The position numbers were made by a program, and so were the translations under genes. Below, piece by piece: positions 38,546 through 58,898 of a stretch of 64,000 nucleotides of DNA; the stretch's first letter is position 1, and every line of letters starts with the position of its first letter. The DNA comes from Trypanosoma brucei (lineage: Eukaryota). The stretch is from contig CP000069.1 in the NCBI GenBank assembly GCA_000002445.1, positions 448,001 to 512,000 of the forward strand, given 5' to 3'. The notes under the pieces are model-generated. The model ran no database searches. It worked only from the letters and a program-made list of their open reading frames with translations, and was not told the DNA's origin.

Positions 38546-39112
38546 TCACAGAAACATGGAAAAATTCATTTGAGAGGTGTTTGTTCTAAAGGATGTAGAA
38601 TCGGAGGCGCTGTCTCCCTTTCCCTTGCCGTGCAGATACCCAAACAACAAGGGGTGAAAGTTCCCGTCGACCGAAGCCACGACACTCAAGATGGCACACC
38701 AAAAGATGGCGAGATGCTGTTTCTGGGAGTGCAAATGGGCATGTCGAACCGCTGCGCCCAGTGCCAAAATAAAACAATCGACTAGGGTTAAAGCGGCGGC
38801 AAATGGAAAATGTAACGCACCGGGCCGTAGGTCACTAACCAACTGAAGTAAAGGCTCGAAGGGGATCCTGCCGCGCCGCGAACTGTCAAAAAAACGGAGA
38901 CCAAAAACATTCCACAAACAGCAGAATCCCGGAAACCTCAATACTATCAGCACGAAGTACCTCGCACTCTCCATATTAAGTCGTGCCCATACCAACCGAG
39001 CCCCAAAGACAACAGCATCGCAGCCGCTACACAAGTTTCCATTTTCAATCTTCCTCCTTCCTCTGACAAATGCGGTCGCCAACGAGACACGTAGCGCCAC
39101 GTTCCACATCAT
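38546..39112 (-). CDS. Hydrophobic hypothetical protein (188 aa) directly abutting the left edge of the tandem array
   Basis: Co-oriented ORF with several hydrophobic segments. Its start codon lies within ~20 nt of the array boundary sequence (catcatctcatagcttcctaatttgcac versus repeat ctcacataatctcataatttcctagtttgcac). No family recognised. Confidence 0.35.
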   Translation of the reverse strand: MMWNVALRVSLATAFVRGRRKIENGNLCSGCDAVVFGARLVWARLNMESARYFVLIVLRFPGFCCLWNVFGLRFFDSSRRGRIPFEPLLQLVSDLRPGALHFPFAAALTLVDCFILALGAAVRHAHLHSQKQHLAIFWCAILSVVASVDGNFHPLLFGYLHGKGKGDSASDSTSFRTNTSQMNFSMFL

Positions 39113-39652: not shown

Positions 39653-40708
39653 TCAGATAAAACAGAGGGATACTGATAGTAACGTAATTTTGAGTGAGGG
39701 AAATGATGCAATATTCTGTTTTTGTGTTTGTGTGGGTTGAGCATCGGAATCCTTTCGTGCTGCAGTTTGGGGTGCTGTTCTCGAGGGTTGCGCGCCTTCA
39801 GCTCCAGCTCCAGATTCCTTTAATGCTTTTACTTCCTCTTCATTTTTCGCTTTACCGTAAGTTCCCTTTAACTTTTTAACTTTCTCTCTCAACTTTTGAA
39901 GAGCTGCATCTCTTTTATTCATGTGACCCATCGCCTGATTCAACTGCTCAACCCACGGCTTTGAAGCAAGTGGATCAGGTTCCTCCTCAACTCTTGGCGG
40001 TGGGGGAACGCCGTGTGGTGGGAACGGAGGTTGTGGTGGTGCTGGTGGCGGCTGTGGAGATCCGTTGTTTTGGCCATCTGAATACCAATTTCGCAAATCC
40101 TCCAAGTCCTGTTTTATAGCCTTAACAGTAACCTCAACGCTACCAGATCCTACTGTACACCTACCTTTAAGTTCCTTCCATAACTGCAGACGGTCTTCCG
40201 GTGTTTGATGCTCCCTCTGATTTTGAGCAGTTCCCGCAACAAAGCAGCTTTCAGTGGCTCCACTTGCAGAGCTGCAAAGGCATACAATTTCTTTCGGTAT
40301 TGTTGTTGAACGGCTTGTTTCATTGCAGGGTTGGTTTTCCCCACGGGATCCAAAAGTTTTGTCCGCATTCTCGGTTTCGATGTCATCCCCATACGCTGCT
40401 TTCCGAAACGCTGTCCTGGCGCTATTTTCATGACTCTGCACTTCGTCTTCTAACTCTTTAACTTTATCCACCTCTGTTTTCAAAGCCGCTGAATCCCTGG
40501 CACCTTTATTAAACCACTGATAATTACTATCATCTTTTAACTTATCAATGTAATTTTCTTTCGCTCCCTTTTCCGCCTTCGTGAAGAGTCCACACAAAAG
40601 ATCAAATCCCTTCCCGTGCTTCCTGTAGTCTATCACGTTATCGTCTCCAGCCGTTACCAACGTTACCGACACTCCCACAACGACCACTTGTACAATTGCT
40701 TGCCACAT
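39653..40708 (-). CDS. Array unit 1: predicted GPI-anchored surface protein (351 aa)
   Basis: N-terminal signal peptide (MWQAIVQVVVVGVSVTLVTAG), a Cys-containing central domain, a proline-rich hinge (PQPPPAPPQPPFPPHGVPPPP), and a C-terminal tail identical to the other copies ending in the hydrophobic SLKITLLSVSLCFI. Confidence 0.8.
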   Translation of the reverse strand: MWQAIVQVVVVGVSVTLVTAGDDNVIDYRKHGKGFDLLCGLFTKAEKGAKENYIDKLKDDSNYQWFNKGARDSAALKTEVDKVKELEDEVQSHENSARTAFRKAAYGDDIETENADKTFGSRGENQPCNETSRSTTIPKEIVCLCSSASGATESCFVAGTAQNQREHQTPEDRLQLWKELKGRCTVGSGSVEVTVKAIKQDLEDLRNWYSDGQNNGSPQPPPAPPQPPFPPHGVPPPPRVEEEPDPLASKPWVEQLNQAMGHMNKRDAALQKLREKVKKLKGTYGKAKNEEEVKALKESGAGAEGAQPSRTAPQTAARKDSDAQPTQTQKQNIASFPSLKITLLSVSLCFI

Positions 40709-42368
40709 TCCTGTGATTCTTCATTATGCACGACAAAGCAAGAAACAAAAAACAGAATTCACATTAAACACAACAGTAATATCAAATAAATGTTGTCTAT
40801 CATGACATGCGCATGTATTATCCCACAGAGCAGTTATTGACTTTCAACCATCGGCGCAAAATGATATATCTTCAAAGGCAGAGCAAACAAACTAACATAA
40901 CATCCAACAGGCCATCTCAACAAGCTCACTATACACGAGGATAGTAAATTCGTCAAATCACTTTACAGATGCCATCGTCGTGATTTCCATTAAACTTTCT
41001 GAATTCCATGTCCCTCTCTCTCTCTCTGAAAGGAATTTGCTTAAAGCATAACATCTAATTCCCCAAAAATGAGTTACACATCCCACATCAAGTCTTTCAC
41101 CCGCCTTACCCTGGTGTATTTCAATCACTCAACTTCTGACAATTCCTATATTCATATTCTTTTCGTTACACTTCCTTAAAATCCTTCCAGACAACCAAGC
41201 ACATCACATTGTTTTATCTTTACATCACTATTAAATGAACAGCAAAAAAAAAATGTACACATCTCCAACACACATGCCGAGTAAACTTCTTGACACCTGA
41301 GGCCGCTCCCACTCCAATCTCGATGGCCTTAACATCAATAACACTCTTGACTAACACTAATATTATTGTGTGATAAAAGAATTGGAAGGATACATTCCCT
41401 AACATGATACCGAAAATTACTGAAACACAAATGTGTAAAGAGTCTAGGAATGGATATACAAAAGGTGGTGTTTAGTAAGAGAAGGGCAATTAACTGCCAC
41501 CCGGAGTGTCTATTTCGTTTAACCTCATCCCGTATATTGTCAACAATACAAAGTCTTATAAAACACACCACCAGTTGTTCTCCAATAAATATACGTTATA
41601 CATGCCAATATCACAAACACTGCAACATCCTCTTTCTTCAACACTTCAAATACGTAACTCATATATCACTTGCTAAAGGTCTTAGTACCATATCCATGCC
41701 TCACTGAAGGGTTTGTGCCGTAACCCAATTAAATGTTGCTTCCTCTCCTCCTTCCATTTCCTCACAATAGGATACGCAGAGCTGCAACTTTGTAATATGT
41801 GCGCAGTTGATGGGGACTTCAGCCGTTATCACTTTAAATTGCAAATGGAAATTCTGAAACAATTCCAATACTCCCTCATGAATACCAACTGTTGCGTGTG
41901 TGTCTCCCATATACCGGCAGTTGCCATTACTGCAATGTTATGCTCAATGAGGATCTTTTTAATATCAAGTGTTAACGGCAACTATTTTATTGTTCATGTC
42001 AGGCTCATATTCATGTAAGTGAAATGGGTGAAACTGTTCTTTTCCTTACTTTGCATTATATAAATAAGAGGAAATAAGGGATGCTTGTTAGAGGCACGCA
42101 ACAGACACATACACATATGAGAGTTTCCATCCAACAATACATACATACCCTTTAAATAGTCCACCAACTGGAGGATGACACCAGCATGTCAGTGAGGGAA
42201 GCAGTATGTCTAGGAATAACATAAAAGACACGCGTGAAGGAATTTACATATTTGTTGCCTTGCTTTGCCTGCTGCGAATACCATATCACCTCCATCAGTA
42301 AAGTTACGGAATTCGGTAAACTTCCATGAATGCACATAAGCAACTGATACACACACACTTTTCCCTTC

Positions 42369-43034
42369 CTATTCCTCTCCTGCACAACTCACATGTTCAC
42401 TTGACGCACTGTCATCCGCTGCAGCAAGTAACTGTTGTCTTCCAGGTGGTTTCTCTCCAGTCAATGCACCACAGAAGCTTACAGTTACTGGCAAAACGGG
42501 TCTGCCCACATCATCAAGAGGAACTGCCTCAAGTTTCTCTAGCAGTGAGAGATCATCAATGGCACGTCCAAACACAACTTGCTTGAAATCAAGAGATGGA
42601 GAAGGACCAAGTGTAATGCCAAATACGGAGCCACTTGTGTGAGGACCCTCAGAGATCATTGTGAGGAGCCCACGTTCCGTGTGTCGGTGACGGTATCCTT
42701 CATCCGCTATTGGTGTGCCAGTGGAGGAGAGGTTAAAGGAATCCAATTCACCCAACACAATGATATTATTGTTGTGATCCACATGATGCACTTGTGTGCC
42801 AAGGTAATCCAATTTCACACCCGTGTTGGTGTCAATCCCACATGACCCAGTGATTAATGCCCTGAAGTTTTCTACGGTTTGTGGCACTACATCGTCAAAG
42901 AGCTCAAATACCAGTCGTCCGCTGAGAACGTCATCAATAGACATATCCAGGAAGGCACGGCAGGAGTTCTGTTCCTCCTTCATGCGATGACTCCGCTGGT
43001 AATTTTCCCATTCCTTTAAGCGGTGCTGTCTCAC
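42369..43034 (-). CDS. Array unit 1: divergent cyclophilin-like protein (PPIase-fold, probably non-catalytic)
   Basis: Matches the cyclophilin core: VFELFDDVVPQTVENFRALITG versus CypA [23 protein letters not shown], and TMISEGPHTSGSVFGITLG versus SMANAGPNTNGSQFFICTA. The functional start is probably the internal Met at 42983 (MKEEQNSC..). Confidence 0.8.
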   Translation of the reverse strand: MRQHRLKEWENYQRSHRMKEEQNSCRAFLDMSIDDVLSGRLVFELFDDVVPQTVENFRALITGSCGIDTNTGVKLDYLGTQVHHVDHNNNIIVLGELDSFNLSSTGTPIADEGYRHRHTERGLLTMISEGPHTSGSVFGITLGPSPSLDFKQVVFGRAIDDLSLLEKLEAVPLDDVGRPVLPVTVSFCGALTGEKPPGRQQLLAAADDSASSEHVSCAGEE

Positions 43035-43581
43035 ATAATCTCATAATTTCCTAGTTTGCACTTTACAAAAGGACAAAAAAAAAAGTAAATATATTGACAC
43101 AACGAAGCACACTCCGTACCCATCCTCCCTCTATTGTTAGTTTCCCAACCAATATACTGCACATTATATGCACAGTAAACGTAAGCTAAAATATATAGAT
43201 ATCTGGTAACCGCAACTGGCGGTTGTAACACTAGTCAATACGGTGCACATAAATTTTATACGAGTTCTTACGAACAAAGTTATTCCATCAACAATATGAA
43301 ACACAAAATGATATATAAACACACAAGACAAACAAACCCCATCTCTGCCAAATGCACTTTTACATTTCTACGGGTGAGCCATTATTGGAGTCCCGTGGCA
43401 GTAAACACTATTACAAACATTATTGGGGGAAGCTTTGGAATAGGATATATAAGACAAGGAAATCAGTAACACAACACATTTGAATGCTTACATTAATTTA
43501 TAGAATATTGATGCGTATGATAACGTTGCGGCAAACAGTTTACATTGCAATATGCTTTTGAATCGTATTTCATTATGATAG

Positions 43582-44607
43582 TCAGATAAAACAGAGGGAT
43601 ACTGACAGTAACGTAATTTTGAGTGAGGGGGATGATGCAATATTCTGTTTTTGTGTTTGTGTGGGTTGAGCATCGGAATCCTTTCGTGCTGCAGTTTGGG
43701 GTGCTGTTCTCGAGGGTTGCGCACCTTCAGCTCCAGCTCCAGATTCCTTTAATGCCTTTACTTCCTCTTCATTTTTCGCTTTACCGTAAGTTCCCCTCAA
43801 CTTTTCGACTTGCTCTCTCAACTTTTGAAGAGCCTCATCTCTTCCCTTCATGTGGTCTGTTGCCTCATTCAAGTTCTTAACCCACGGCTTAGAAGTAAAT
43901 ATATCAGGCTCCTCCTCAGGCATTGGTGGACCGCCGGGCGGCGGGGGTGGTGGACCGTCATGTATTGGTTTTTCAGGATACAATCCTCGCAAACCCTCCA
44001 AGTCCTTTCTTATGGCATCAACAGTAACCTCAACTCTATTGATACCCTTTGTACATTTTCCCTTAAGTTCAACCCATGCCTGAAGACCGTCTTCGGCGTT
44101 TCCGTTCTGGCCATACTCTCGGGCTTTCCCGCTCCCAAGGCAGTAGTCGGTGGCCTCACCAACAGAGCTGCAAGTGCAGACAATTTCTTTTGGTAATGCT
44201 GGCCACTCGCTAGCTGGGTTACAGGGCTGGTTGCCCCCATGGGACCCAAACGTTTTGTCCGCATCCTCTTTTTCAATGTTTTCCCCATACGCTGCTTTTT
44301 GAAACGATGACCTGGCGCCATTTTCATGACTCTTTACTTCGTCTTCTAACTCTTTAACTTTATCCACCTCCGCTTTTAAAGCTGGTGAATCCCTGGCATC
44401 TTTATTAAACCACTGATAATCTTCGGTTTCTTTTAACTTATCGAGGTGACTTTTTTCTTTCGCTCCCTTTTCTGCCTTCGTGAAGAGTGAGCACAAGAGA
44501 TCAAATCCCTTTTTGTTTTTTTCATGGTCAACTGCGTTATCGTCTTGAGCTGTTATCCGCGTTACCAACACTCCCACCATGACCACTTTCATAATTACTC
44601 TCCACAT
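43582..44607 (-). CDS. Array unit 2: predicted GPI-anchored surface protein (341 aa)
   Basis: Same architecture and invariant C-terminus. The central domain and a shorter Pro hinge (GPPPPPPGGPPMPEEEP) differ from the other copies. Confidence 0.8.
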   Translation of the reverse strand: MWRVIMKVVMVGVLVTRITAQDDNAVDHEKNKKGFDLLCSLFTKAEKGAKEKSHLDKLKETEDYQWFNKDARDSPALKAEVDKVKELEDEVKSHENGARSSFQKAAYGENIEKEDADKTFGSHGGNQPCNPASEWPALPKEIVCTCSSVGEATDYCLGSGKAREYGQNGNAEDGLQAWVELKGKCTKGINRVEVTVDAIRKDLEGLRGLYPEKPIHDGPPPPPPGGPPMPEEEPDIFTSKPWVKNLNEATDHMKGRDEALQKLREQVEKLRGTYGKAKNEEEVKALKESGAGAEGAQPSRTAPQTAARKDSDAQPTQTQKQNIASSPSLKITLLSVSLCFI

Positions 44608-46251
44608 AGATGTATACCTTTATTATTCGTAATAACAACACAGTAAAAAATAATAGAACATTCATAATAAACACTACAATAATATCAAATCAATGTTGTC
44701 TATCATAACATTGCGTATATTATCCCACAGAGCAAGTGTTAATTTTAAACTCTCGGCAGAAAGTGATATATCTTGCACAGGCAGAGCAAACAGGCTGAAA
44801 TAAAATAGCACCCAACAGGCCATCTCCACAAGTTCACTATACACACAAGAATGATAAATTCACTCAGTTACTCAACAGATGCCAGATATTTGATTTCCCA
44901 TAAACTTTTTTTATTCCTTACTGCTCTAACTCTCTGAAAGGAATTTCCCTCATACAGTAGATTCAGCTGGGTCAAGAAGAGGCACACATCCCACCTCAAC
45001 TTTTTCACCTGCCCAATTTCGGTTTATTTCGGCCAGATACCTTATGATAATTCCCATACTCATATCATTATAGTCACACTTTCTCCATGTCCTCTCAGAC
45101 ACACAAACAAATCATGTTCCTCAATCTTCACATCGCTGTTAAAAACAACAACAGCAAAAAGAAAATACCCACGGTATATTCATTGCTATCTTGTTCCAAA
45201 GCTAGTTCCGTGACCGTAACGTCAGCGACATTCCCTACGAACACAAATATTATCATGTGATAAAAGAATTGGAAGGACACATTTCCTAATATGAAACCGC
45301 AAATCACTGAAACACAAATGTGTAAAGTGTCTAGGAATGGATATACAAAAGGTGGTGTTTAGTGAGGGAAGGATTATTAACTGCCACCCAGTGTGTCTAT
45401 TTCTTTACACCTCATTTCGTATATTGTCAACAATACAAAGTCTTATAAAACATACCATCAGTTGTTCTCCAATAAATATACGTTATACATGCCAATATCA
45501 CAGACACTGCAACATCCTCTTTCTTCAACACTTCAAATACGTAACTCATATACTACTTGCTAAATGTCTTAGTACCATATCCATGCCTCACTGAAGGGTT
45601 TGTGCCGTAACCCAATTAAATGTTGCTTCCTCTCCTCCTTCCATTTCCTCACAATATGATACGCAGAGCTGCAACTTTGTAATATGTGCGCAGTTGATGG
45701 GGACTTCAGTGGTTATCACTTTAAATTGCAAATGGAAATTCTGAAACAGTTCCAATACTCCCTCATGAATACCAACTAGTGTGTGTCTCCCATATACTAG
45801 CAGTTGTCATTACTGCAATGTTATGCTCAATGAGGATCTTTTTATTATCAAGTGTTAGCGCCAACTATTTTATTGTTCATGTCAGGCTCATATTCATGTA
45901 AGTGAAATGGGTGAAACTGTTCTTTTCCTTACTTTGCATTATATAAATAAGAGGAAATAAGGAATGCTTGTTAGAGGCACTCAACAGACACATACACATA
46001 TGAGAGTTTCCATCCAACAATACATACATATCCTTTAAATAGTCCACCAACTGGAGGATGACACCAGCAGGTCAGTGAGGGAAGCAGTATGTCTAGGAAT
46101 AATATAAAAGACACGTGTGACAAAATTTACATATTTGTTGCCTTGCTTTGCCTGCTGCGAATACCATATCACCTCCATCAGTAAAGTTACGGAATTCGGT
46201 AAACTTCCATGAATGCACATAAGCAACTGATACACACACTCTCTTCCCTTT

Positions 46252-46866
46252 CTATTCCTCTCCTGCACAACTCACATGTTCACTTGACGCACTGTCATCC
46301 GCTGCAGCAGGTACCTGTTGTCTTCCAGGTGGTTTCTCTCCAGTCAATGCACCACAGAAGCTTACAGTTACTGGCAAAACGGGTCTGTCCACATCATCAA
46401 GAGGAACTGCCTCAAGTTTCTCTAGCAGTGAGAGATCATCAATGGCACGTCCAAACACAACTTGCTTGAAATCAAGAGATGGAGAAGGACCAAGTGTAAT
46501 GCCAAATACGGAGCCACTTGTGTGAGGACCCTCAGAGATCATTGTGAGAAGCCCACGTTCCGTGTGTCGGTGACGGTATCCTTCATCCGCTATTGGTGTG
46601 CCAGTGGAGGAGAGGTTAAAGGAATCCAATTCACCCAACACAATGATATTATTGTTGTGATCCACATGATGCACTTGTGTGCCAAGGTAATCCAATTTCA
46701 CACCCGTGTTGGTGTCAATCCCACATGACCCAGTGATTAATGCCCTGAAGTTTTCTACGGTTTGTGGCACTACATCGTCAAAGAGCTCAAATACCAGTCG
46801 TCCGCTGAGAACGTCATCGATGGACATGTCCAGGAAGGCACGGCAGGAGTTCTGTTCCTCCTTCAT
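46252..46866 (-). CDS. Array unit 2: cyclophilin-like protein (204 aa; an in-frame TAA removes the N-terminal extension seen in the other copies)
   Basis: Starts at the Met that is internal in the other copies. Plus-strand 46888-46890 reads tta (minus TAA), where the other units have ttc (GAA). Confidence 0.8.
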   Translation of the reverse strand: MKEEQNSCRAFLDMSIDDVLSGRLVFELFDDVVPQTVENFRALITGSCGIDTNTGVKLDYLGTQVHHVDHNNNIIVLGELDSFNLSSTGTPIADEGYRHRHTERGLLTMISEGPHTSGSVFGITLGPSPSLDFKQVVFGRAIDDLSLLEKLEAVPLDDVDRPVLPVTVSFCGALTGEKPPGRQQVPAAADDSASSEHVSCAGEE

Positions 46867-47466
46867 GCGATGACTCCGCTGGTAATTTTACCATTCCTTT
46901 AAGCGGTGCTGTCTCACATTATTTCATAATTTCCTAATTTGCACTCTACAGCAGGACAAAAAAAAAAAAGAGGAAATATATTGACACAGCAAAGCACACT
47001 CAGTACCCATCCTCCCTCTATTGTTAGTCTCCACACCAATATATTGCCCATTATATGCACAGGAAACGTAAGCTAAAATATATATAGATATCCGGTAACC
47101 GCAACTGGCGGTTGCAACAGTAGCCAACACGGTACACATAAATGTTTTAAGTTCTTACGAACAAAGTTATTCCATCAATAATATGAAACACAAAATGGCA
47201 TAAACACACAAGACAAACAAACCCCATCTCTGCCAAATGCACTTTTACATTTCTGTGGGTGAGCCATTATTGGAGTCCCGTGGCAGTAAACACTATTACA
47301 AACATTATTCGGAGAAGCTTTGAAATAAGATATATAAGACAAGGAAATCAGTAACACAACACATTTGAATGCTTACATTAGTTTATAGAATATTGATGCG
47401 TATGATAGCGTTGCGGCAAACAGTTTACATTGCAATATGCTTTTGAATCGTTCCTTATTATGATAG

Positions 47467-48504
47467 TCAGATAAAACAGAGGGATACTGATAGTAACGTA
47501 ATTTTGAGTGAGGGAAATGATGCAATATTCTGTTTTTGTGTTTGTGTTTGTGTGGGTTGAGGATCGGAATCCTTTCGTGCTGCAGTTTGGGGTGCTGTTC
47601 TCGAGGGTTGCACACCTTCAGCTCCAGCTCCAGATTCCTTTAATGCCTTTACTTCCTCTTCATTTTTCGCTCTACCGTAAGTTCCCTTCAGCCTTTTAAC
47701 TTTCTCCTTCAAGTTTTCCAGCGCTGCATCTCTCTTATTCATATGGCTCATCGCCTCATCTAACCGCTTAACCCATGGCTTAGAAGCAAGAGGATCAGGC
47801 CTTTCAGGTATTTGTAGTGGTGAACTGTCTGGTGGTGGTGGTGATGGTGGTGGTGGGGGTGGTGGGGGTGGTGGGGAATCAACTTCCTGGTCTTCTGAAT
47901 ACAATCCTCGCAAATTCTCCAAGTCTTTTCTTATGGCTTCAATAGTAACCTCAACTCTTTCGCTATCCTTTGTACACCTGCTCTTAACTCCATACCATGC
48001 CTGTAGACCGTCTTCCGCTGTCCCGCTTTGGTCATGGCCATAACTTCGAGCCTTCCCGCTCCCAAGGCAGTAGTCGGTGGCCTCGCCAACAGAGCTGCAA
48101 ATGCAGACAATTTCTTTTGGTATTGTTGGCCACTCACTAGCTGGGTTACAGGGCTGGTTGCCCCCATGGGATCCAAAAGTTTTGTCCGCATCCTCTTTTT
48201 CAATGTTTTCCCCATACGCTGCTTTCCGAAACGCTGTCCTGGCATTATTTTCATGACTCTGCACTTCGCTTTCTAACTCTTTCACCTTTTCCGTCTCCGT
48301 TTTCAGAGTCGATGAATCTCTAGCATGTTTCAACTTACCGATGTAGTTTTCTCCTTTTGCTCCCTCTGCCGCCTTCGTGAAGAGCGAGCACAAAATATCA
48401 AACATCTTCTCGTTTTTGCCATGGTTCCTCCAGCTGTCCTCGCCGACAGTAACCTGCGATACCAACACTCCCACCATGACCACTTGCATAAATGATCGCC
48501 ACAT
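47467..48504 (-). CDS. Array unit 3: predicted GPI-anchored surface protein (345 aa)
   Basis: Longest Pro hinge (SPPPPPPPPPPSPPPPDSSP). The central domain resembles unit 2; the post-hinge segment resembles unit 1. Confidence 0.8.
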   Translation of the reverse strand: MWRSFMQVVMVGVLVSQVTVGEDSWRNHGKNEKMFDILCSLFTKAAEGAKGENYIGKLKHARDSSTLKTETEKVKELESEVQSHENNARTAFRKAAYGENIEKEDADKTFGSHGGNQPCNPASEWPTIPKEIVCICSSVGEATDYCLGSGKARSYGHDQSGTAEDGLQAWYGVKSRCTKDSERVEVTIEAIRKDLENLRGLYSEDQEVDSPPPPPPPPPPSPPPPDSSPLQIPERPDPLASKPWVKRLDEAMSHMNKRDAALENLKEKVKRLKGTYGRAKNEEEVKALKESGAGAEGVQPSRTAPQTAARKDSDPQPTQTQTQKQNIASFPSLKITLLSVSLCFI

Positions 48505-50097
48505 TGTTGTCTTTCTTCACTGTAAACAACAGCACAGAGAAAAACAGCATTCATATTAAACACTACCGTAAAATCAAATAAATGCTGTCTACCTTAAAAC
48601 ATGCACATGTATTATCCCACAGATCAAATATTAATTTTCAACCATCGGCATAAAAAGATATGCCTTTCGTAGGCAGAGCAAACAAACTAACATAACATCC
48701 AACAAGCCACCTCAACAAGCTCACTATACACGAGGATAGTAAATTCGTCAAATCACTATACAGATGCCATCGTCGTCATTTCCCTCATACAGTAGATTCA
48801 GCTGGGTCAAAAAGAGACACACATCCCACATCAAGTCTTTCACCTGCCTTATCCTGGTGTATTTCAATCACTCAACCTCTGACAATTGCTATATTCATAT
48901 TCTTTTGGTTACACTTTCTTAATATCCTCTCAGATACACGAGCACATCACATTGCTTATCTTTACATGGCAATCCAAAATAACAACAGAACCAAAATGCA
49001 CACAGTAAACTTCTTGACACCTGAGGCCGCTCCCACTCCAATCTCGAGGGCCTTAACATCAGAGACACTCTTGACTAACACTAATACTATTGTGTGATAA
49101 AAGAATTGGAAGGATACATTTCCTAACATGACACCGAAAATTACTGAAACACAAATGTGTAAAGTGTCTATGGATGGAAATGCAAAATATGTGGTGTTTA
49201 GTAAGGGAAGGATTATTAACTGCCACCCGGAGTGTATATTTCGTTTAACCTCACTCTGCATATTCTGAACAATACCAAATCTTATAAAACACACCACCAG
49301 TTGTTCTCCAATAAATATACGTTATACATGCCAATATCACAAACACTGCAACATCCTCTTTCTTCAACACTTCAAATACGTAACTCATATATCACTTGCT
49401 AAAGGTCTTAGTACCATATCCATGCCTCACTGAAGGGTTCGTGCCCCTACCCAATTAAATGTTGCTTCCTCTCCTCCTTCCATTTCCTCACAATATGATA
49501 CGCAGAGCTGCAACTTTGTAATATGTGCGCAGTTGATGGGGACTTCAGCCGTTATCACTTTAAATTGCAAATGGAAATTCTGAAACAATTCCAATACTCC
49601 CTCATGAATACCAACTGTTGCGTGTGTGTCTCCCATATACCGGCAGTTGCCATTACTGCAATGTTATGCTCAATGAGGATCTTTTTAATATCAAGTGTTA
49701 ACGGCAACTATTTTATTGTTCATGTCAGGCTCATATTCATGTAAGTGAAATGGGTGAAACTGTTCTTTTCCTTACTTTGCATTATATAAATAAGAGGAAA
49801 TAAGGGATGCTTGTTAGAGGCACGCAACAGACACATACACATATGAGAGTTTCCATCCAACAATACATACATACCCTTTAAATAGTCCACCAACTGGAGG
49901 ATGACACCAGCATGTCAGTGAGGGAAGCAGTATGTCTAGGAATAACATAAAAGACACGCGTGAAGGAATTTACATATTTGTTGCCTTGCTTTGCCTGCTG
50001 CTACGAATACCATATCACCTCCATCAGTAAAGTTACGGAATTCGGTAAACTTCCATGAATGCACATAAGCAACTGATACACACACACTTTTCCCTTC

Positions 50098-50763
50098 CTA
50101 TTCCTCTCCTGCACAACTCACATGTTCACTTGACGCACTGTCATCCGCTGCAGCAAGTAACTGTTGTCTTCCAGGTGGTTTCTCTCCAGTCAATGCACCA
50201 CAGAAGCTTACAGTTACTGGCAAAACGGGTCTGCCCACATCATCAAGAGGAACTGCCTCAAGTTTCTCTAGCAGTGAGAGATCATCAATGGCACGTCCAA
50301 ACACAACTTGCTTGAAATCAAGAGATGGAGAAGGACCAAGTGTAATGCCAAATACGGAGCCACTTGTGTGAGGACCCTCAGAGATCATTGTGAGGAGCCC
50401 ACGTTCCGTGTGTCGGTGACGGTATCCTTCATCCGCTATTGGTGTGCCAGTGGAGGAGAGGTTAAAGGAATCCAATTCACCCAACACAATGATATTATTG
50501 TTGTGATCCACATGATGCACTTGTGTGCCAAGGTAATCCAATTTCACACCCGTGTTGGTGTCAATCCCACATGACCCAGTGATTAATGCCCTGAAGTTTT
50601 CTACGGTTTGTGGCACTACATCGTCAAAGAGCTCAAATACCAGTCGTCCGCTGAGAACGTCATCAATAGACATATCCAGGAAGGCACGGCAGGAGTTCTG
50701 TTCCTCCTTCATGCGATGACTCCGCTGGTAATTTTCCCATTCCTTTAAGCGGTGCTGTCTCAC
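50098..50763 (-). CDS. Array unit 3: cyclophilin-like protein
   Basis: Same 221-aa ORF translation as units 1 and 4. Confidence 0.8.
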   Translation of the reverse strand: MRQHRLKEWENYQRSHRMKEEQNSCRAFLDMSIDDVLSGRLVFELFDDVVPQTVENFRALITGSCGIDTNTGVKLDYLGTQVHHVDHNNNIIVLGELDSFNLSSTGTPIADEGYRHRHTERGLLTMISEGPHTSGSVFGITLGPSPSLDFKQVVFGRAIDDLSLLEKLEAVPLDDVGRPVLPVTVSFCGALTGEKPPGRQQLLAAADDSASSEHVSCAGEE

Positions 50764-51316
50764 ATTATTTCATAATTTCCTAATTTGCACTCTACAGCAG
50801 GACAAAAAAAAAAAAGAGGAAATATATTGACACAGCAAAGCACACTCAGTACCCATCCTCCCTCTATTGTTAGTCTCCACACCAATATATTGCCCATTAT
50901 ATGCACAGGAAACGTAAGCTAAAATATATATAGATATCCGGTAACCGCAACTGGCGGTTGTAACACTAGTCAATACGGTGCACATAAATTTTATACGAGT
51001 TCTTACGAACAAAGTTATTCCATCAACAATATGAAACACAAAATGATATATAAACACACAAGACAAACAAACCCCATCTCTGCCAAATGCACTTTTACAT
51101 TTCTACGGGTGAGCCATTATTGGAGTCCCGTGGCAGTAAACACTATTACAAACATTATTGGGGGAAGCTTTGGAATAGGATATATAAGACAAGGAAATCA
51201 GTAACACAACACATTTGAATGCTTACATTAATTTATAGAATATTGATGCGTATGATAACGTTGCGGCAAACAGTTTACATTGCAATATGCTTTTGAATCG
51301 TTCCTTATTATGATAG

Positions 51317-52360
51317 TCAGATAAAACAGAGGGATACTGATAGTAACGTAATTTTGAGTGAGGGGGATGATGCAATATTCTGTTTTTGTGTTTGTGTGGG
51401 TTGAGCATCGGAATCCTTTCGTGCTGCAGTTTGGGGTGCTGTTCTCGAGGGTTGCGCACCTTCAGCTCCAGCTCCAGATTCCTTTAATGCCTTTACTTCC
51501 TCTTCATTTTTCGCTTTACCGTAAGTTCCCCTCAACTTTTCGACTTGCTCTCTCAACTTTTGAAGAGCCTCATCTCTTCCCTTCATGTGGTCTGTTGCCT
51601 CATTCAAGTTCTTAACCCACGGCTTAGAAGTAAATATATCAGGCTCCTCCTCAGGCATTGGTGGACTGCCAGGTGGGAACGGAGGTGGCGGTGGTGGCGG
51701 TGGAGGTTCTTGGCCTTTTGAGTCGTCTGAATACAAACCCCTCAAACCCTCCAAGTCCTTTTCTATAGCTTCGACAGTAACCTCGGCACTGCTGCTGGCA
51801 CTCGTACATTTTCCCTTAACTCCATTCCATGCCTGTAGACGCTGTTCAGCCGTGGTATCGTCGTGATTTCGGGCATTCTCGCTCCCACCGAAGCAGCTTT
51901 CAGTGGCACCTTGTGTGGGGCTGCAACTACAGATGATACTGTTAGGTATCGTTGACCATCGGTTTGTTTCGTCGCATGGATTGCCTACTGTATGGTGTCC
52001 AAAAGTTTTGTCCGCGTCCTCTTCTTCAATGTTATCCCCATAGGCTGCTTTCCGAAACGCTGTCTTGGCGCCACTTTCATGGCTCTGCACTTTGTTTTCT
52101 AACTCTTTAACTTTATCCACCTCCGCTTTTAAAGCTGGTGAATCCCTGGCATCTTTATTAAACCACTGATAATCTTCGGTTTCTTTTAGCTTATCGAGGT
52201 GACTTTTTTCTTTCGCTCCCTTTTCTGCCTTCGTGAAGAGTGAGCACAAGAGATCAAATCCCTTCTTGTCTTTCTCGTGGTCAATCCAGTCATTCTTTCC
52301 CATTGCAACTCCCGTTACCAACACTCCCACCATGACCACTTTCATAATTACTCTCCACAT
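51317..52360 (-). CDS. Array unit 4: predicted GPI-anchored surface protein (347 aa)
   Basis: Near-identical to unit 5, with about 6 amino-acid differences. Confidence 0.8.
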   Translation of the reverse strand: MWRVIMKVVMVGVLVTGVAMGKNDWIDHEKDKKGFDLLCSLFTKAEKGAKEKSHLDKLKETEDYQWFNKDARDSPALKAEVDKVKELENKVQSHESGAKTAFRKAAYGDNIEEEDADKTFGHHTVGNPCDETNRWSTIPNSIICSCSPTQGATESCFGGSENARNHDDTTAEQRLQAWNGVKGKCTSASSSAEVTVEAIEKDLEGLRGLYSDDSKGQEPPPPPPPPPFPPGSPPMPEEEPDIFTSKPWVKNLNEATDHMKGRDEALQKLREQVEKLRGTYGKAKNEEEVKALKESGAGAEGAQPSRTAPQTAARKDSDAQPTQTQKQNIASSPSLKITLLSVSLCFI

Positions 52361-53987
52361 AGATGTATACCTTTATTATTCGTAATAACAACACAGTAAA
52401 AAATAATAGAACATTAATATTAAACACTACAGTAATATCAAATCAATGTTGTCTATCATAACATTGCGTATATTATCCCACAGAGCAGTTATTACTGTTT
52501 AACTCTCAGCAGAAAGTGATATGCCATTCATAGGCAGAGCATGCAAACTAACATAACATCCAACAAGCCATCTCCACAAGCTCACTATACACGAGGATAG
52601 TAAATTCACGAAGTCACTTTACAGATGCCATCGTCGTGATTTCCCTCAATCTTTTTTTATTCCTTACTGCTCTAACTCTCTGAAAGGAATTTCCCTCATA
52701 CAGTAGATTCAGCTGGGTCAAAAAGAGGCACACATCCCACATCAAGTCTTTCACCTGCCTTATCCTGGTGTATTTCAACCACACACCTTCTAGGAATATT
52801 CATATATAATTATAGTCACACTTTCTCCATGTCCTCTCAGACACAAGAACAAATCATGATCCTCTACTTTTACATCACTATTAAATGAACAGCAAAAAGA
52901 AAATACACACAATATATTCATTGATATATGGTTCCCACTGCTGGTTCCGTGACCGTAATGTCAGTGACACATTTTACGAACACAAATACTATGATAAAAG
53001 AATTGGAAGGACACATTTCCTAACATGACACCGAAAATTACTGAAACACAAATGTGTAAAGTGTCTATGGATGGAAATGCAAAATATGTGGTGTTTAGTA
53101 AGGGAAGGATTATTAGCTGCCACCCGGAGTGTATATTTCTTTACACCTCATTTCGTATCTTGTCAACAATACAAAGTCTTATAAAACACACCACCAGTTG
53201 TTCTCCAATAAATATACGTTATACATGCCAATATCACAGACACTGCAACATCCTCTTTCTTCAACACTTCAAATACGTAACTCATATATCACTTGCTAAA
53301 GGTCTTAGTACCATATCCATGCCTCACTGAAGGGTTTGTGCCGTAACCCAATTAAATGTTGCTTCCTCTCCTCCTTCCATTTCCTCACAATATGATACGC
53401 AGAGCTGCAACTTTGTAATATGTGCGCAGTTGATGGGGACTTCAGTGGTTATCACTTTAAATTGCAAATGGAAATTCTGAAACAGTTCCAATACTCCCTC
53501 ATGAATACCAACTAGTGTGTGTCTCCCATATACTAGCAGTTGTCATTACTGCAATGTTATGCTCAATGAGGATCTTTTTATTATCAAGTGTTAGCGCCAA
53601 CTATTTTATTGTTCATGTCAGGCTCATATTCATGTAAGTGAAATGGGTGAAACTGTTCTTTTCCTTACTTTGCATTATATAAATAAGAGGAAATAAGGAA
53701 TGCTTGTTAGAGGCACTCAACAGACACATACACATATGAGAGTTTCCATCCAACAATACATACATATCCTTTAAATAGTCCACCAACTGGAGGATGACAC
53801 CAGCAGGTCAGTGAGGGAAGCAGTATGTCTAGGAATAATATAAAAGACACGTGTGACAAAATTTACATATTTGTTGCCTTGCTTTGCCTGCTGCGAATAC
53901 CATATCACCTCCATCAGTAAAGTTACGGAATTCGGTAAACTTCCATGAATGCACATAAGCAACTGATACACACACACTTTTCCCTTC

Positions 53988-54653
53988 CTATTCCTCTCCT
54001 GCACAACTCACATGTTCACTTGACGCACTGTCATCCGCTGCAGCAAGTAACTGTTGTCTTCCAGGTGGTTTCTCTCCAGTCAATGCACCACAGAAGCTTA
54101 CAGTTACTGGCAAAACGGGTCTGCCCACATCATCAAGAGGAACTGCCTCAAGTTTCTCTAGCAGTGAGAGATCATCAATGGCACGTCCAAACACAACTTG
54201 CTTGAAATCAAGAGATGGAGAAGGACCAAGTGTAATGCCAAATACGGAGCCACTTGTGTGAGGACCCTCAGAGATCATTGTGAGGAGCCCACGTTCCGTG
54301 TGTCGGTGACGGTATCCTTCATCCGCTATTGGTGTGCCAGTGGAGGAGAGGTTAAAGGAATCCAATTCACCCAACACAATGATATTATTGTTGTGATCCA
54401 CATGATGCACTTGTGTGCCAAGGTAATCCAATTTCACACCCGTGTTGGTGTCAATCCCACATGACCCAGTGATTAATGCCCTGAAGTTTTCTACGGTTTG
54501 TGGCACTACATCGTCAAAGAGCTCAAATACCAGTCGTCCGCTGAGAACGTCATCAATAGACATATCCAGGAAGGCACGGCAGGAGTTCTGTTCCTCCTTC
54601 ATGCGATGACTCCGCTGGTAATTTTCCCATTCCTTTAAGCGGTGCTGTCTCAC
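53988..54653 (-). CDS. Array unit 4: cyclophilin-like protein
   Basis: Same 221-aa ORF translation as units 1 and 3. Confidence 0.8.
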   Translation of the reverse strand: MRQHRLKEWENYQRSHRMKEEQNSCRAFLDMSIDDVLSGRLVFELFDDVVPQTVENFRALITGSCGIDTNTGVKLDYLGTQVHHVDHNNNIIVLGELDSFNLSSTGTPIADEGYRHRHTERGLLTMISEGPHTSGSVFGITLGPSPSLDFKQVVFGRAIDDLSLLEKLEAVPLDDVGRPVLPVTVSFCGALTGEKPPGRQQLLAAADDSASSEHVSCAGEE

Positions 54654-55202
54654 ATAATCTCATAATTTCCTAGTTTGCACTTTACAAAAGGACAAAAAAA
54701 AAAGTAAATATATTGACACAACGAAGCACACTCCGTACCCATCCTCCCTCTATTGTTAGTTTCCCAACCAATATACTGCACATTATATGCACAGTAAACG
54801 TAAGCTAAAATATATATAGATATCTGGTAACCGCAACTGGCGGTTGTAACACTAGTCAATACGGTGCACATAAATTTTATACGAGTTCTTACGAACAAAG
54901 TTATTCCATCAACAATATGAAACACAAAATGATATATAAACACACAAGACAAACAAACCCCATCTCTGCCAAATGCACTTTTACATTTCTACGGGTGAGC
55001 CATTATTGGAGTCCCGTGGCAGTAAACACTATTACAAACATTATTGGGGGAAGCTTTGGAATAGGATATATAAGACAAGGAAATCAGTAACACAACACAT
55101 TTGAATGCTTACATTAATTTATAGAATATTGATGCGTATGATAACGTTGCGGCAAACAGTTTACATTGCAATATGCTTTTGAATCGTATTTCATTATGAT
55201 AG

Positions 55203-56246
55203 TCAGATAAAACAGAGGGATACTGACAGTAACGTAATTTTGAGTGAGGGGGATGATGCAATATTCTGTTTTTGTGTTTGTGTGGGTTGAGCATCGGAAT
55301 CCTTTCGTGCTGCAGTTTGGGGTGCTGTTCTCGAGGGTTGCGCACCTTCAGCTCCAGCTCCAGATTCCTTTAATGCCTTTACTTCCTCTTCATTTTTCGC
55401 TTTACCGTAAGTTCCCTTTAACTTTTTGACTTGCTCTCTCAACTTTTGAAGAGCCTCATCTCTTCCCTTCATGTGGTCTGTTGCCTCATTCAAGTTCTTA
55501 ACCCATGGCTTAGAAGCAAATTGATCAGGCTTCTCCTCAGGCATTGGTGGACTGCCAGGTGGGAACGGAGGTGGCGGTGGTGGCGGTGGAGGTTCTTGGC
55601 CTTTTGAGTCGTCTGAATACAAAGCCCTCAAACCCTCCAAGTCCTTTTCTATAGCTTCGACAGTAACCTCGGCACTGCTGCTGGCACTCGTACATTTTCC
55701 CTTAACTCCATTCCATGCCTGTAGACGCTGTTCAGCCGTGGTATCGTCGTGATTTCGGGCATTCTCGCTCCCACCGAAGCAGCTTTCAGTGGCACCTTGT
55801 GTGGGGCTGCAACTACAGATGATACTGTTAGGTATCGTTGACCATCGGTTTGTTTCGTCGCATGGATTGCCTACTGTATGGTGTCCAAAAGTTTTGTCCG
55901 CGTCCTCTTCTTCAATGTTATCCCCATAGGCTGCTTTCCGAAACGCTGTCTTGGCGCCACTTTCATGGCTCTGCACTTTGTTTTCTAACTCTTTAACTTT
56001 ATCCACCTCCGCTTTTAAAGCTGGTGAATCCCTGGCATCTTTATTAAACCACTGATAATCTTCGGTTTCTTTTAGCTTATCGAGGTGACTTTTTTCTTTC
56101 GCTCCCTTTTCTGCCTTCGTGAAGAGTGAGCACAAGAGATCAAATCCCTTCTTGTCTTTCTCGTGGTCAATCCAGTCATTCTTTCCCATTGCAACTCCCG
56201 TTACCAACACTCCCACCATGACCACTTTCATAATTACTCTCCACAT
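55203..56246 (-). CDS. Array unit 5: predicted GPI-anchored surface protein (347 aa)
   Basis: See unit 4. Confidence 0.8.
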   Translation of the reverse strand: MWRVIMKVVMVGVLVTGVAMGKNDWIDHEKDKKGFDLLCSLFTKAEKGAKEKSHLDKLKETEDYQWFNKDARDSPALKAEVDKVKELENKVQSHESGAKTAFRKAAYGDNIEEEDADKTFGHHTVGNPCDETNRWSTIPNSIICSCSPTQGATESCFGGSENARNHDDTTAEQRLQAWNGVKGKCTSASSSAEVTVEAIEKDLEGLRALYSDDSKGQEPPPPPPPPPFPPGSPPMPEEKPDQFASKPWVKNLNEATDHMKGRDEALQKLREQVKKLKGTYGKAKNEEEVKALKESGAGAEGAQPSRTAPQTAARKDSDAQPTQTQKQNIASSPSLKITLLSVSLCFI

Positions 56247-58692: not shown

Positions 58693-58898
58693 GATGTCGA
58701 ATAAGTGAATGCTATCTCAATCCTCTGAAGTTTTAAAATGAAAGCCGAAGAAAGAGGAGAAATAAAGGATGGAAGAGTGAGGGATGCTGGGCGTATTGGT
58801 AGTGTAACCATAAACACTATAGGTGATGTGAAAACAATGATTCCCTGAAGCCTCTTGGGTGGGGGTAAGGGAAGATAAAGGAGGAGAAAGAAGATCAG

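What the first reader, a model, noticed from the sequence alone, without database searches (positions are those of the whole stretch)
46867..46900. Repeat-unit junction lies inside the cyclophilin-like 5' coding region; one copy carries an in-frame stop there
The transcriptionally first copy (57874..58692) has a unique 68-aa N-terminal extension, MLQRGIGLV...VEERRLKEWENY. Internal copies begin MRQHRLKEWENY, where MRQHR is encoded by spacer sequence. In unit 2 the extension has GAA changed to TAA (plus-strand tta at 46888-46890 against ttc in the other units). The duplication breakpoint therefore cuts the ancestral ORF. The functional protein in all copies probably starts at the conserved internal Met (MKEEQNSCRAFL...), which is the normal cyclophilin N-terminus.
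Basis: seen in the sequence. Interest (0 to 1): 0.5.

Follow-up and report, generated by a model that had tools for sequence, protein, structure and literature searches.

The report
Tandem duplication truncates a trypanosome cyclophilin
In a known five-unit gene array on Trypanosoma brucei chromosome 6, the duplication breakpoint cut a conserved cyclophilin gene, so only the first copy is full length; the flagged stop codon sits in the untranslated leader of a shortened copy and is harmless.

Summary
The sequence facts hold. There are five cyclophilin copies on the minus strand, and unit 2 alone has TAA at 46890-46888 where the others have GAA. The window is T. brucei TREU927 chromosome 6 (window + 448000). 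It holds the published Fam1 (VSG-like) array, Tb927.6.1310-.1400.

'MLQRG' is TTG and 'MRQHR' is GTG. The first copy (Tb927.6.1400) starts at ATG 58656 and is 260 aa. Internal copies have no in-frame ATG before MKEEQ and are annotated as 204 aa. So the TAA lies in the 79-nt 5'UTR of Tb927.6.1340.

In orthologues from Trypanosoma to Leishmania CYP9 the N-terminal extension carries a near-invariant motif, DVEERRLKEWENYQRSHR. AlphaFold predicts it as a confident helix. The 'conserved' Met57 is found only in T. brucei.

The breakpoint is a 7-nt microhomology, ATGTGGA. It is shared by cyclophilin codons 39-41 and the start codon of the downstream gene Tb927.6.1300. The truncated copies therefore use that gene's splice acceptor and leader.

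Published ribosome profiling indicates Tb927.6.1340 is translated. This is an ordinary partial-gene tandem duplication and of low interest.

The parts
57874..58656 (-). Tb927.6.1400, the full-length CYP9-type cyclophilin-like gene (260 aa, starts ATG at 58656). It is the first-transcribed copy and the only one that encodes the conserved N-terminal helix.
   Evidence: Exact match to XP_845262.1/AAZ11703.1. Gene model Tb927_06_v4:505874-506724 in Vasquez 2014 suppl. 5. Pfam Pro_isomerase covers residues 67-228.
58657..58724 (-). The 68-nt 5'UTR of Tb927.6.1400. It begins 1 nt after AG 58726-58725, which follows polypyrimidine tract 58762-58747. It contains no upstream ATG.
58535..58541 (-). Upstream parental breakpoint: ATGTGGA inside codons D39-V40-E41 (GAT GTG GAG) of the full-length gene.
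   Evidence: Three-way comparison of the first copy, the internal copies and the downstream flank.
39103..39109 (-). Downstream parental breakpoint: ATGTGGA at the annotated start (ATG ATG TGG) of Tb927.6.1300, 541 nt downstream of the last Fam1 stop codon. Homology of the flank to the internal spacers ends here.
   Evidence: T. b. gambiense has ATGTGGAG here.
38546..39112 (-). Tb927.6.1300, a hypothetical 188-aa ORF. Its 5' leader and splice acceptor were copied onto the truncated cyclophilins.
   Evidence: Exact match to XP_845252.1. The ORF is interrupted after 74 codons in T. b. gambiense. It has no detectable homology to the cyclophilin gene.
46913..46919 (-). Duplication junction in unit 2 (ATGTGAG). 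The same junction occurs at 43030-43036, 50759-50765 and 54649-54655.
46867..46945 (-). The 79-nt 5'UTR of Tb927.6.1340. It holds the Tb927.6.1300-derived leader (46945-46920), the junction, and the vestigial codons V40-R56 of the ancestral extension (46917-46867).
   Evidence: Gene model 494252-494945. It starts 1 nt after AG 46947-46946, downstream of polypyrimidine tract 46976-46958. Upstream ORFs in this leader are listed by Jensen 2014.
46888..46890 (-). TAA in place of GAA (vestigial codon E49). It is private to unit 2 and lies in the non-coding leader.
46252..46866 (-). Tb927.6.1340, a truncated cyclophilin-like ORF (204 aa, starts at ancestral codon 57). It carries a private G216D change at 46388.
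   Evidence: Exact match to XP_845256.1. Translational efficiency 2.08 in bloodstream forms and 2.18 in procyclic forms. G216 is at least 90% conserved.
42369..42983 (-). Tb927.6.1320, a truncated 204-aa copy. Identical proteins are encoded at 50098-50712 (Tb927.6.1360) and 53988-54602 (Tb927.6.1380).
   Evidence: Exact match to XP_845254.1 = AAZ11695/11699/11701. Upstream-ORF table coordinates.
46814..46894 (-). Out-of-frame upstream ORF (ATG at -28) that overlaps the main start codon. Two further upstream ATGs lie at 46927 (ATG AAA TAA) and 46919 (ATG TGA; this ATG lies within the microhomology shared by both parental sequences and is the positional counterpart of the Tb927.6.1300 start codon).
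   Evidence: Jensen 2014 suppl. 5 lists 494927-494919 and 494894-494814.
39653..56246 (-). The five Fam1 (VSG b-type-like, GPI-anchored) genes that alternate with the cyclophilins: 39653-40708, 43582-44607, 47467-48504, 51317-52360 and 55203-56246.
   Evidence: Jackson 2013.

Best explanation
The ancestral order on T. brucei chromosome 6 was: full-length CYP9-type cyclophilin, one Fam1 surface-protein gene, then Tb927.6.1300. A tandem duplication joined two copies of the sequence ATGTGGA. One lies at the start codon of Tb927.6.1300. The other lies in codons 39-41 of the cyclophilin.

As a result, every unit after the first carries a cyclophilin that has lost its own start codon and its first ~40 codons. 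In their place it has the polypyrimidine tract, AG splice acceptor and leader that served Tb927.6.1300. This lets the truncated copies be trans-spliced into mRNAs within the polycistron.

The surviving codons 40-56 of the ancestral extension have no in-frame ATG. They are now 5'UTR and are no longer constrained as protein. All internal copies have replaced the conserved E41, E42 and R43, and unit 2 has turned E49 into TAA without consequence.

Translation of the internal copies can begin only at ATG codon 57, after leaky scanning past three out-of-frame upstream ATGs. The product is a 204-aa protein with the whole cyclophilin-like domain but without the family's conserved N-terminal helix. Only the first copy makes the ancestral 260-aa protein.

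Shown: the anatomy, the conservation, the gene models and the ribosome footprints. Inferred: the recombination mechanism, actual use of the splice site in every unit, and whether the short protein has any function.
For: Locus identity: Tb927.6.1420.1280.1400 and .1340 coordinates equal window + 448000. All five cyclophilin proteins and Tb927.6.1300 match TREU927 entries exactly.

Breakpoints: homology of the first copy to the internal copies begins at ATGTG. Homology of the terminal flank to the internal spacers ends at the same ATGTGGA. The flank beyond that point is unrelated to the cyclophilin (z < 1 against shuffles; BLASTP E = 3.4).

Single-unit state: T. b. gambiense has cyclophilin(260 aa)-Fam1-flank. 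The duplication Tb927.6.1310-.1390 is reported absent from T. b. gambiense DAL972 and T. evansi STIB805 (PMC4288722; PMC3605285). T. vivax and T. congolense each have one cyclophilin in conserved synteny.

Extension is ancestral and structured.

Leader: internal gene-model 5' ends fall 1 nt after the first AG downstream of the polypyrimidine tract. The upstream ORFs at -61 and -28 are catalogued in these leaders.

Relaxed constraint: 7 fixed changes in the 18 nt after ATGTG. Three are non-synonymous at residues that are invariant or at least 90% conserved. T. b. gambiense agrees with the first copy at all 7.

Translation: Tb927.6.1340 has TE 2.08 (bloodstream) and 2.18 (procyclic). Tb927.6.1400 has 3.98 and 2.22. 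Both rank in the top ~20% of 7782 genes.
Against: - I could not read primary spliced-leader data for these repeated genes. The Kolev and Nilsson tables held here have no entry for them. The 5' ends are therefore gene-model coordinates, not reads I inspected.
- Ribosome-profiling values for near-identical paralogues depend on how few reads map uniquely.
- The single-unit state in T. b. gambiense and T. evansi could be a secondary collapse rather than the ancestral state.
- The junction-proximal mutation cluster is not explained by relaxed selection alone.
- Tb927.6.1300 may not be a real protein-coding gene, although its splice acceptor can still be real.
Confidence: 0.8

Rival explanations
1. 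The N-terminal extension of the first copy is not part of the functional protein. All five copies make the same protein from the internal Met, which is the normal N-terminus.
For: The Pfam cyclophilin domain starts at residue 67, so a Met57 start keeps the entire generic domain. All five copies share an intact ORF from Met57. Tb927.6.1340 shows ribosome footprints.
Against: Met57 is specific to T. brucei. The motif upstream of it is near-invariant in 56 orthologues and is predicted as a confident helix. The first copy's leader begins 68 nt upstream of the long ATG and has no upstream ATG, so scanning ribosomes reach that ATG first. Public annotation gives 260 aa.
Confidence: 0.05
2. The truncated copies are non-functional passengers, in effect pseudogenes. 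They were amplified only because they lie next to Fam1 and are kept similar by gene conversion, not by selection. This is compatible with the structural account above and differs only on function.
For: - The truncated copies lack the family's most conserved segment.
- Three out-of-frame upstream ATGs precede the start, and one of them overlaps it.
- Unit 2 carries G216D at a residue that is at least 90% conserved.
- The duplication is absent from T. b. gambiense and T. evansi, so the extra copies are dispensable.
Against: All four ORFs are intact. Three encode identical proteins. The translational efficiency of Tb927.6.1340 is about 2 in both life stages. With so few substitutions, no dN/dS test has power.
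Confidence: 0.45
3. The sequence downstream of the array is a decayed sixth cyclophilin copy. The shared ATGTGGA is then inherited homology, and the true distal breakpoint lies elsewhere.
For: MAFFT placed GAAGGAGGAA of the flank at a nearly collinear offset with the cyclophilin (49 against 55 nt from ATGTGG). BLASTP gave a collinear 23%-identity alignment.
Against: The local alignment score equals the shuffle mean (20 against 20.7 ± 2.0). Global collinear alignments of 30-400 nt give z between -1.7 and +0.9 for both the T. b. brucei and T. b. gambiense flanks. BLASTP E = 3.4.
Confidence: 0.05
4. Internal copies initiate at a non-AUG codon (the GTG) and so keep part of the conserved motif. On this view the TAA inactivates that isoform in unit 2.
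For: The frame is open from the GTG to Met57 in three of the four internal copies. The last 30 nt before ATG57 are identical to the first copy.
Against: An in-frame TGA lies two codons upstream of the GTG. E41, E42 and R43 are replaced by R, Q and H in all internal copies. Identity of the last 30 nt is expected from gene conversion. Public annotation and the upstream-ORF catalogue treat the region as 5'UTR. From general knowledge, non-AUG initiation is not an established route in trypanosomes.
Confidence: 0.03
5. The TAA, or the copy number, is an error of the reference assembly.
For: The TAA is a single-base difference in a repeat. Copy number differs between strains.
Against: Unit 2 carries several other private or T. 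b. gambiense-like variants across the unit, so it is a distinct copy rather than a misassembled read. Two independent ribosome-profiling studies report values for Tb927.6.1340 separately.
Confidence: 0.05

Closest known systems
Fam1 tandem array of T. brucei TREU927 chromosome 6 (Tb927.6.1310-.1390; Jackson et al. 2013, PMC3605285; Carnes et al. 2015, PMC4288722)
   Same: It is this locus. There are five VSG b-type-like genes at a strand-switch region. Copy number is polymorphic, with a single copy in T. b. gambiense DAL972 and T. evansi STIB805.
   Different: The word 'cyclophilin' does not occur in the main text of the Fam1 (Jackson 2013) or tandem-array (Jackson 2007) papers, and the Fam1-locus passages retrieved from Carnes 2015 do not mention the co-duplicated gene. 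They do not describe its truncation, the position of the junction or the captured leader.
Kinetoplastid CYP9-type cyclophilins (named 'cyclophilin 9' in Leptomonas, Lotmaria and Novymonas; 'putative cyclophilin' of 260-284 aa in T. cruzi, T. rangeli and T. conorhini)
   Same: Tb927.6.1400 is the T. brucei orthologue. It shows 45-76% identity, conserved synteny in T. vivax, and the same N-terminal DVEERRLKEWENYQRSHR motif followed by a cyclophilin-like domain.
   Different: The four internal copies cannot encode the motif. No orthologue in the alignment begins at the position of Met57.
Partial-gene tandem duplications with short-homology breakpoints, and the structurally heterogeneous array ends described for T. 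brucei tandem arrays (Jackson 2007, PMC1855330)
   Same: Units lie head to tail. The first copy keeps a unique 5' end. There is concerted evolution inside the array and divergence at its edges.
   Different: The truncated gene acquires a neighbouring gene's trans-splice acceptor and leader. That is the trypanosome equivalent of promoter capture.
Non-catalytic cyclophilin-like domains (for example human PPIL6, 'probable inactive', among the best PDB sequence matches)
   Same: The fold is cyclophilin (TM 0.9 to cyclophilin G and H). Key catalytic and cyclosporin-binding residues are replaced.
   Different: No orthology to PPIL6 was shown. The N-terminal helix has no counterpart in solved structures (about 174 aligned columns only).

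Membership tests
Cyclophilin-type PPIase / cyclophilin-like domain (Pfam PF00160) | Significant match to the Pro_isomerase profile over the whole domain | tested here: met
   E = 2e-24, residues 67-228 of 260, profile positions 1-158 of 159. Foldseek TM 0.9 to cyclophilins G and H. All five copies contain this segment.
Catalytically active cyclophilin | Conservation of human CypA R55, Q63, N102, F113, W121 and H126 | tested here: not met
   R55 is H or L, N102 is S, F113 is G, W121 is S and H126 is Q across 17 orthologues. Activity itself was not tested.
Kinetoplastid CYP9-type cyclophilin | N-terminal extension with the near-invariant motif EERRLKEWENYQ(R/K)SHR ahead of the domain | tested here: met
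   Met for Tb927.6.1400. Not met for the ORFs of Tb927.6.1320.1340.1360 and .1380, which start after the motif.
Kinetoplastid CYP9-type cyclophilin | Conserved synteny (cyclin ... MATH-domain gene, 228/229-aa gene, then cyclophilin) | tested here: met
   Same gene order in T. b. gambiense and T. vivax. The 229-aa gene is adjacent to the cyclophilin in T. congolense.
Fam1 array (Jackson 2013) | Five tandem VSG b-type-like GPI-anchored genes at Tb927.6.1310-.1390 on chromosome 6 | tested here: met
   Coordinates map to chromosome 6. Pfam VSG_B hit. Exact TREU927 proteins. Description in PMC3605285.
Microhomology- or short-homology-mediated tandem duplication | The same short sequence is present at both parental breakpoints and once at each junction, with unrelated sequence on the far sides | tested here: met
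   ATGTGGA occurs at 58541-58535 and at 39109-39103. ATGTG is retained at all four junctions. The far sides are unrelated. By my own calculation, at least 7 nt of chance identity at a breakpoint has probability of about 3e-4.
Pseudogene (for the internal copies) | A disabling mutation inside the translated ORF, or no expression | tested here: not met
   ORFs from ATG57 are intact in all four copies. The TAA is upstream of the ORF. Ribosome footprints are reported for Tb927.6.1340. Loss of the conserved helix may still abolish the ancestral function, which was not testable here.
Trans-spliced mRNA with mapped 5' end | Spliced-leader addition at an AG downstream of a polypyrimidine tract | tested here: inconclusive
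   Sequence signals and gene-model 5' ends agree exactly. The primary SL-read tables held here contain no entry for the array genes.

The most novel reading that the evidence does not exclude
The 204-aa proteins are real, translated products specific to strains that carry the array. They would be a 'headless' cyclophilin-like domain without the family's invariant N-terminal helix. The T. brucei-specific Ser/Leu-to-Met change at codon 57 and the captured Tb927.6.1300 leader would have made this possible. The short form might compete with, or act differently from, the full-length CYP9-type protein.
Probability: 0.25. Interest if true: 0.35.

Novelty: new member of a known kind. Interest (0 to 1): 0.2.

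Why it matters
The main value is for annotation and for interpreting this locus.
- The flagged stop codon is not a pseudogenising lesion.
- The five 'cyclophilin' genes of this array are not equivalent. Only Tb927.6.1400 is the orthologue of CYP9 in other kinetoplastids. RNAi, tagging or proteomics that treat them as one gene will mix two different proteins.
- The locus is a clean example of how a gene fragment stays expressible in a polycistronic genome, by inheriting a neighbour's trans-splice acceptor.
- The N-terminal helix motif is the defining and so far unstudied feature of this cyclophilin family.

None of this changes current understanding of trypanosome biology.

Tried and rejected
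1. I first took the array for the chromosome 7 MISP array. The MISP paper's gene list and signal-peptide sequence do not fit. Chromosome 6 coordinates then settled the matter.

2. I tested whether the downstream flank (Tb927.6.1300) is a decayed cyclophilin copy. Local and global alignments against dinucleotide shuffles, and BLASTP, gave no signal.

3. I searched for primary spliced-leader site data. The Nilsson 2010 and Kolev 2010 supplements have no rows for the array genes, and no Siegel 2010 supplement is held.

4. I looked for proteomic evidence. The supplement of the proteome-turnover paper is not held. No main text in the library mentions Tb927.6.1320 to .1400.

5. I tried T. equiperdum loci as a second genome carrying the array. 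One contig breaks inside the repeated spacer. The other assembly lacks the cyclophilin region.

6. A dN/dS test on the internal copies was not attempted, because there are too few substitutions.

7. Foldseek against the PDB found no counterpart for the N-terminal helix.

Full report
**What the window is.** The proteins encoded here match Trypanosoma brucei brucei TREU927 entries exactly. Published coordinates place the window on chromosome 6. Tb927.6.1420 at 508169-508915 equals window 60169-60915. Tb927.6.1280 at 471788 equals window 23788. Tb927.6.1400 at 505874-506724 and Tb927.6.1340 at 494252-494945 fit the same offset. So chromosome 6 (v4) = window + 448000.

The repeat has five units of about 3.88 kb on the minus strand. 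Each unit holds a cyclophilin-like gene and a GPI-anchored gene with a VSG_B domain. This is the published 'Fam1' array. It is described as a polymorphic five-copy tandem array at a strand-switch region, with a single copy in T. b. gambiense (PMC3605285). The duplication Tb927.6.1310-.1390 is reported absent from T. b. gambiense DAL972 and T. evansi STIB805 (PMC4288722). The main texts of the Fam1 paper and the 2007 tandem-array paper do not contain the word 'cyclophilin', and the passages retrieved from PMC4288722 do not mention the co-duplicated gene. My first guess, the chromosome 7 MISP array, was wrong.

**Checking the observation.** On the minus strand, unit 2 reads GTG AGA CAG CAC CGC TTA AAG GAA TGG TAA AAT TAC CAG CGG AGT CAT CGC ATG AAG. 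The TAA is at 46890-46888. The other four copies and the T. b. gambiense orthologue have GAA there. That part of the finding is correct.

- 'MLQRG...' begins at TTG 58692 and 'MRQHR...' at GTG 46917. These starts appear only under the bacterial code.
- The first ATG of the first copy is at 58656. It gives MSTTKLEG..., 260 aa, which is the annotated XP_845262.1.
- The internal copies have no in-frame ATG before MKEEQ, and an in-frame TGA lies two codons ahead of the GTG. They are annotated as 204 aa (XP_845254.1 and XP_845256.1).

The TAA therefore does not interrupt an ORF.

**Where the junction is.** I compared three sequences: the first copy, the internal copies, and the sequence downstream of the last unit. 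The first copy becomes homologous to the internal copies at ATGTG (58541 in the first copy). The corresponding positions in the internal copies are 54655, 50765, 46919 and 43036. The terminal flank stops being homologous to the internal spacers at the same string, ATGTGGA, at 39109-39103.

In the first copy this string lies in codons D39-V40-E41 (GAT GTG GAG). In the flank it is the annotated start, ATG ATG TGG, of the hypothetical gene Tb927.6.1300 (XP_845252.1). T. b. gambiense has ATGTGGAG there.

The flank beyond this point shows no similarity to the cyclophilin gene. The local alignment score equals that of shuffles. Global collinear alignments give z between -1.7 and +0.9. BLASTP gives E = 3.4. 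I therefore rejected the idea that the flank is a decayed sixth copy. I read ATGTGGA as 7 nt of microhomology at the two parental breakpoints. By my own calculation, chance identity of that length at a breakpoint has probability of roughly 3e-4.

The T. b. gambiense assembly shows the single-unit arrangement: cyclophilin(260 aa)-Fam1-flank. T. vivax and T. congolense each have one cyclophilin, preceded by the same neighbouring genes.

**The extension is ancestral and conserved.** A search with the 260-aa protein found orthologues throughout Trypanosomatidae. In Leptomonas, Lotmaria and Novymonas they are named cyclophilin 9.

In an alignment of 17 named orthologues, E41, R43, R44, K46, E47, W48, E49, Y51, H55 and R56 are invariant. 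In 56 sequences, R43, R44, E47 and W48 remain invariant. E41, E42, L45, K46, E49, N50, Q52 and R56 are at least 90% conserved. Position 57 is Met only in T. brucei. It is Ser in most species, Leu in T. congolense and Phe in some Leishmania.

AlphaFold, run with the 56-sequence alignment, gave mean pLDDT 85.7. It predicts a helix over residues 24-54, with pLDDT 87 and 95 for residues 31-40 and 41-50. The Pfam domain covers residues 67-228. Solved cyclophilins align only over about 174 columns, so the helix has no structural precedent in the PDB.

The first copy keeps the ancestral protein, and the internal copies are truncated.

**What the flagged segment is now.** In the internal copies a polypyrimidine tract (46976-46958 in unit 2) is followed by AG at 46947-46946. 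The gene model used by Vasquez et al. 2014 for Tb927.6.1340 starts at 494945, which is window 46945. That is exactly 1 nt after this AG. The model for Tb927.6.1400 starts at window 58724, 1 nt after AG 58726-58725, which follows its own polypyrimidine tract.

The leader of Tb927.6.1340 is thus 79 nt (46945-46867). It consists of the Tb927.6.1300-derived leader, the junction, and the vestigial codons 40-56, which include the TAA. It holds three out-of-frame upstream ATGs at -61, -53 and -28. The ATG at -53 lies within the microhomology shared by both parental sequences and is the positional counterpart of the Tb927.6.1300 start codon. It now reads ATG TGA. The ATG at -28 opens an ORF that overlaps the main start. 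Jensen et al. 2014 list the upstream ORFs at -61 and -28 for Tb927.6.1320.1340.1360 and .1380 at matching coordinates. The 68-nt leader of Tb927.6.1400 has no upstream ATG.

I could not inspect primary spliced-leader reads. The tables held here omit these repeated genes.

**Constraint.** Over about 730 aligned nucleotides from the junction, the first copy and the internal copies differ at 7 of the 18 positions just after ATGTG. They differ at only 8 positions in the following ~710 nt. At all 7 positions T. b. gambiense agrees with the first copy, so the internal copies are the derived ones.

The changes turn E41, E42 and R43 into R, Q and H. These are residues that are invariant or nearly so in the family. 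There are also two synonymous changes. Together with the TAA at E49 in unit 2, this shows that the vestigial codons are not maintained as protein.

The density of changes, 39% against about 1%, is more than relaxed selection explains. Two readings remain open. One is an edge effect of gene conversion, in which the boundary keeps the true age of the duplication. This fits the 66-76% identity among Fam1 proteins. The other is error-prone synthesis at the original breakpoint. I could not decide between them.

**Are the truncated copies used?** Vasquez et al. report translational efficiencies of 2.08 (bloodstream forms, rank 1513 of 7782) and 2.18 (procyclic forms, rank 1600) for Tb927.6.1340. For Tb927.6.1400 they report 3.98 (rank 296) and 2.22 (rank 1567). 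So the truncated ORF appears to be translated, with the caveat that few reads map uniquely in near-identical paralogues.

Several facts argue against a needed function.
- The conserved helix is lost.
- Upstream ATGs precede the start.
- Unit 2 carries a private G216D change at 46388, in a residue that is at least 90% conserved.
- The extra units are absent from other Trypanozoon genomes.

I put the 'passenger' reading at about 0.45 and a real, distinct function lower.

**Comparison and verdict.** This is a partial-gene tandem duplication at a short homology, inside a known and annotated array. One detail is typical of trypanosomes: the fragment remains expressible because it inherited the neighbouring gene's trans-splice acceptor and leader.

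The stop codon has no consequence. Interest is low. The useful outcomes are a warning that the five 'cyclophilins' are two different proteins, and the identification of the conserved N-terminal helix as the family's hallmark.

Noticed in passing
window 57874-58656 and orthologues P0002-P0049: The CYP9-type family lacks the canonical catalytic and cyclosporin-binding residues of human cyclophilin A. R55 is H or L, N102 is S, F113 is G, W121 is S and H126 is Q in all 17 aligned orthologues.
   Followed up: partly
L002 9706-10977 (T. vivax): In T. vivax the gene just downstream of the single cyclophilin belongs to the haptoglobin-haemoglobin receptor family (PF20933). T. brucei has the VSG_B-type Fam1 gene at that position. 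This slot appears to be a changeable site for surface-protein genes.
   Followed up: no
window 39653-56246 (five Fam1 genes): Divergence within the repeat unit is very uneven. Spacers, cyclophilins and the Fam1 C-terminal ~100 aa are 94-100% identical. Whole Fam1 proteins are only 66-76% identical between copies, and the nucleotide identity of their N-terminal-domain region falls as low as 64-75% between units. This suggests diversifying change or segmental exchange on a homogenised background.
   Followed up: no
window 43030-43036, 46913-46919, 50759-50765, 54649-54655 and about 20 nt on either side: There is a cluster of fixed substitutions around every internal junction: 7 in the 18 nt downstream and 2 at 11-12 nt upstream. 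This is far denser than anywhere else in the homogenised part of the unit. The cause is unresolved.
   Followed up: partly
window 38546-39112; L001 about 13945-14170: The annotated hypothetical gene Tb927.6.1300 is interrupted by a stop after 74 codons in T. b. gambiense. It may not encode a protein, although its 5' processing signals are what the truncated cyclophilins use.
   Followed up: partly
window 46381-46400: The private G-to-A change of unit 2 (G216D, 46388) creates GATGATGTGGA. This is an 11-nt match to the Tb927.6.1300 start region, which served as the duplication breakpoint. It is probably coincidence.
   Followed up: no
L005 1-454 (T. equiperdum OVI, CZPT02001303.1): The contig begins inside the repeated spacer, 454 nt upstream of the Tb927.6.1300 orthologue. 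Its flank is identical to that of TREU927. An assembly break at this point hints that T. equiperdum OVI also carries more than one unit.
   Followed up: partly
window 36320-37252 (+): A lone plus-strand 310-aa gene (Tb06.3A7.960 in Kolev's transcription-unit table) sits between two minus-strand polycistrons, just downstream of the array. It has no Pfam match.
   Followed up: no
window 47830-47874: A (TGG)15 repeat on the plus strand encodes the poly-proline tract of one Fam1 copy. The length of this tract differs between copies.
   Followed up: no
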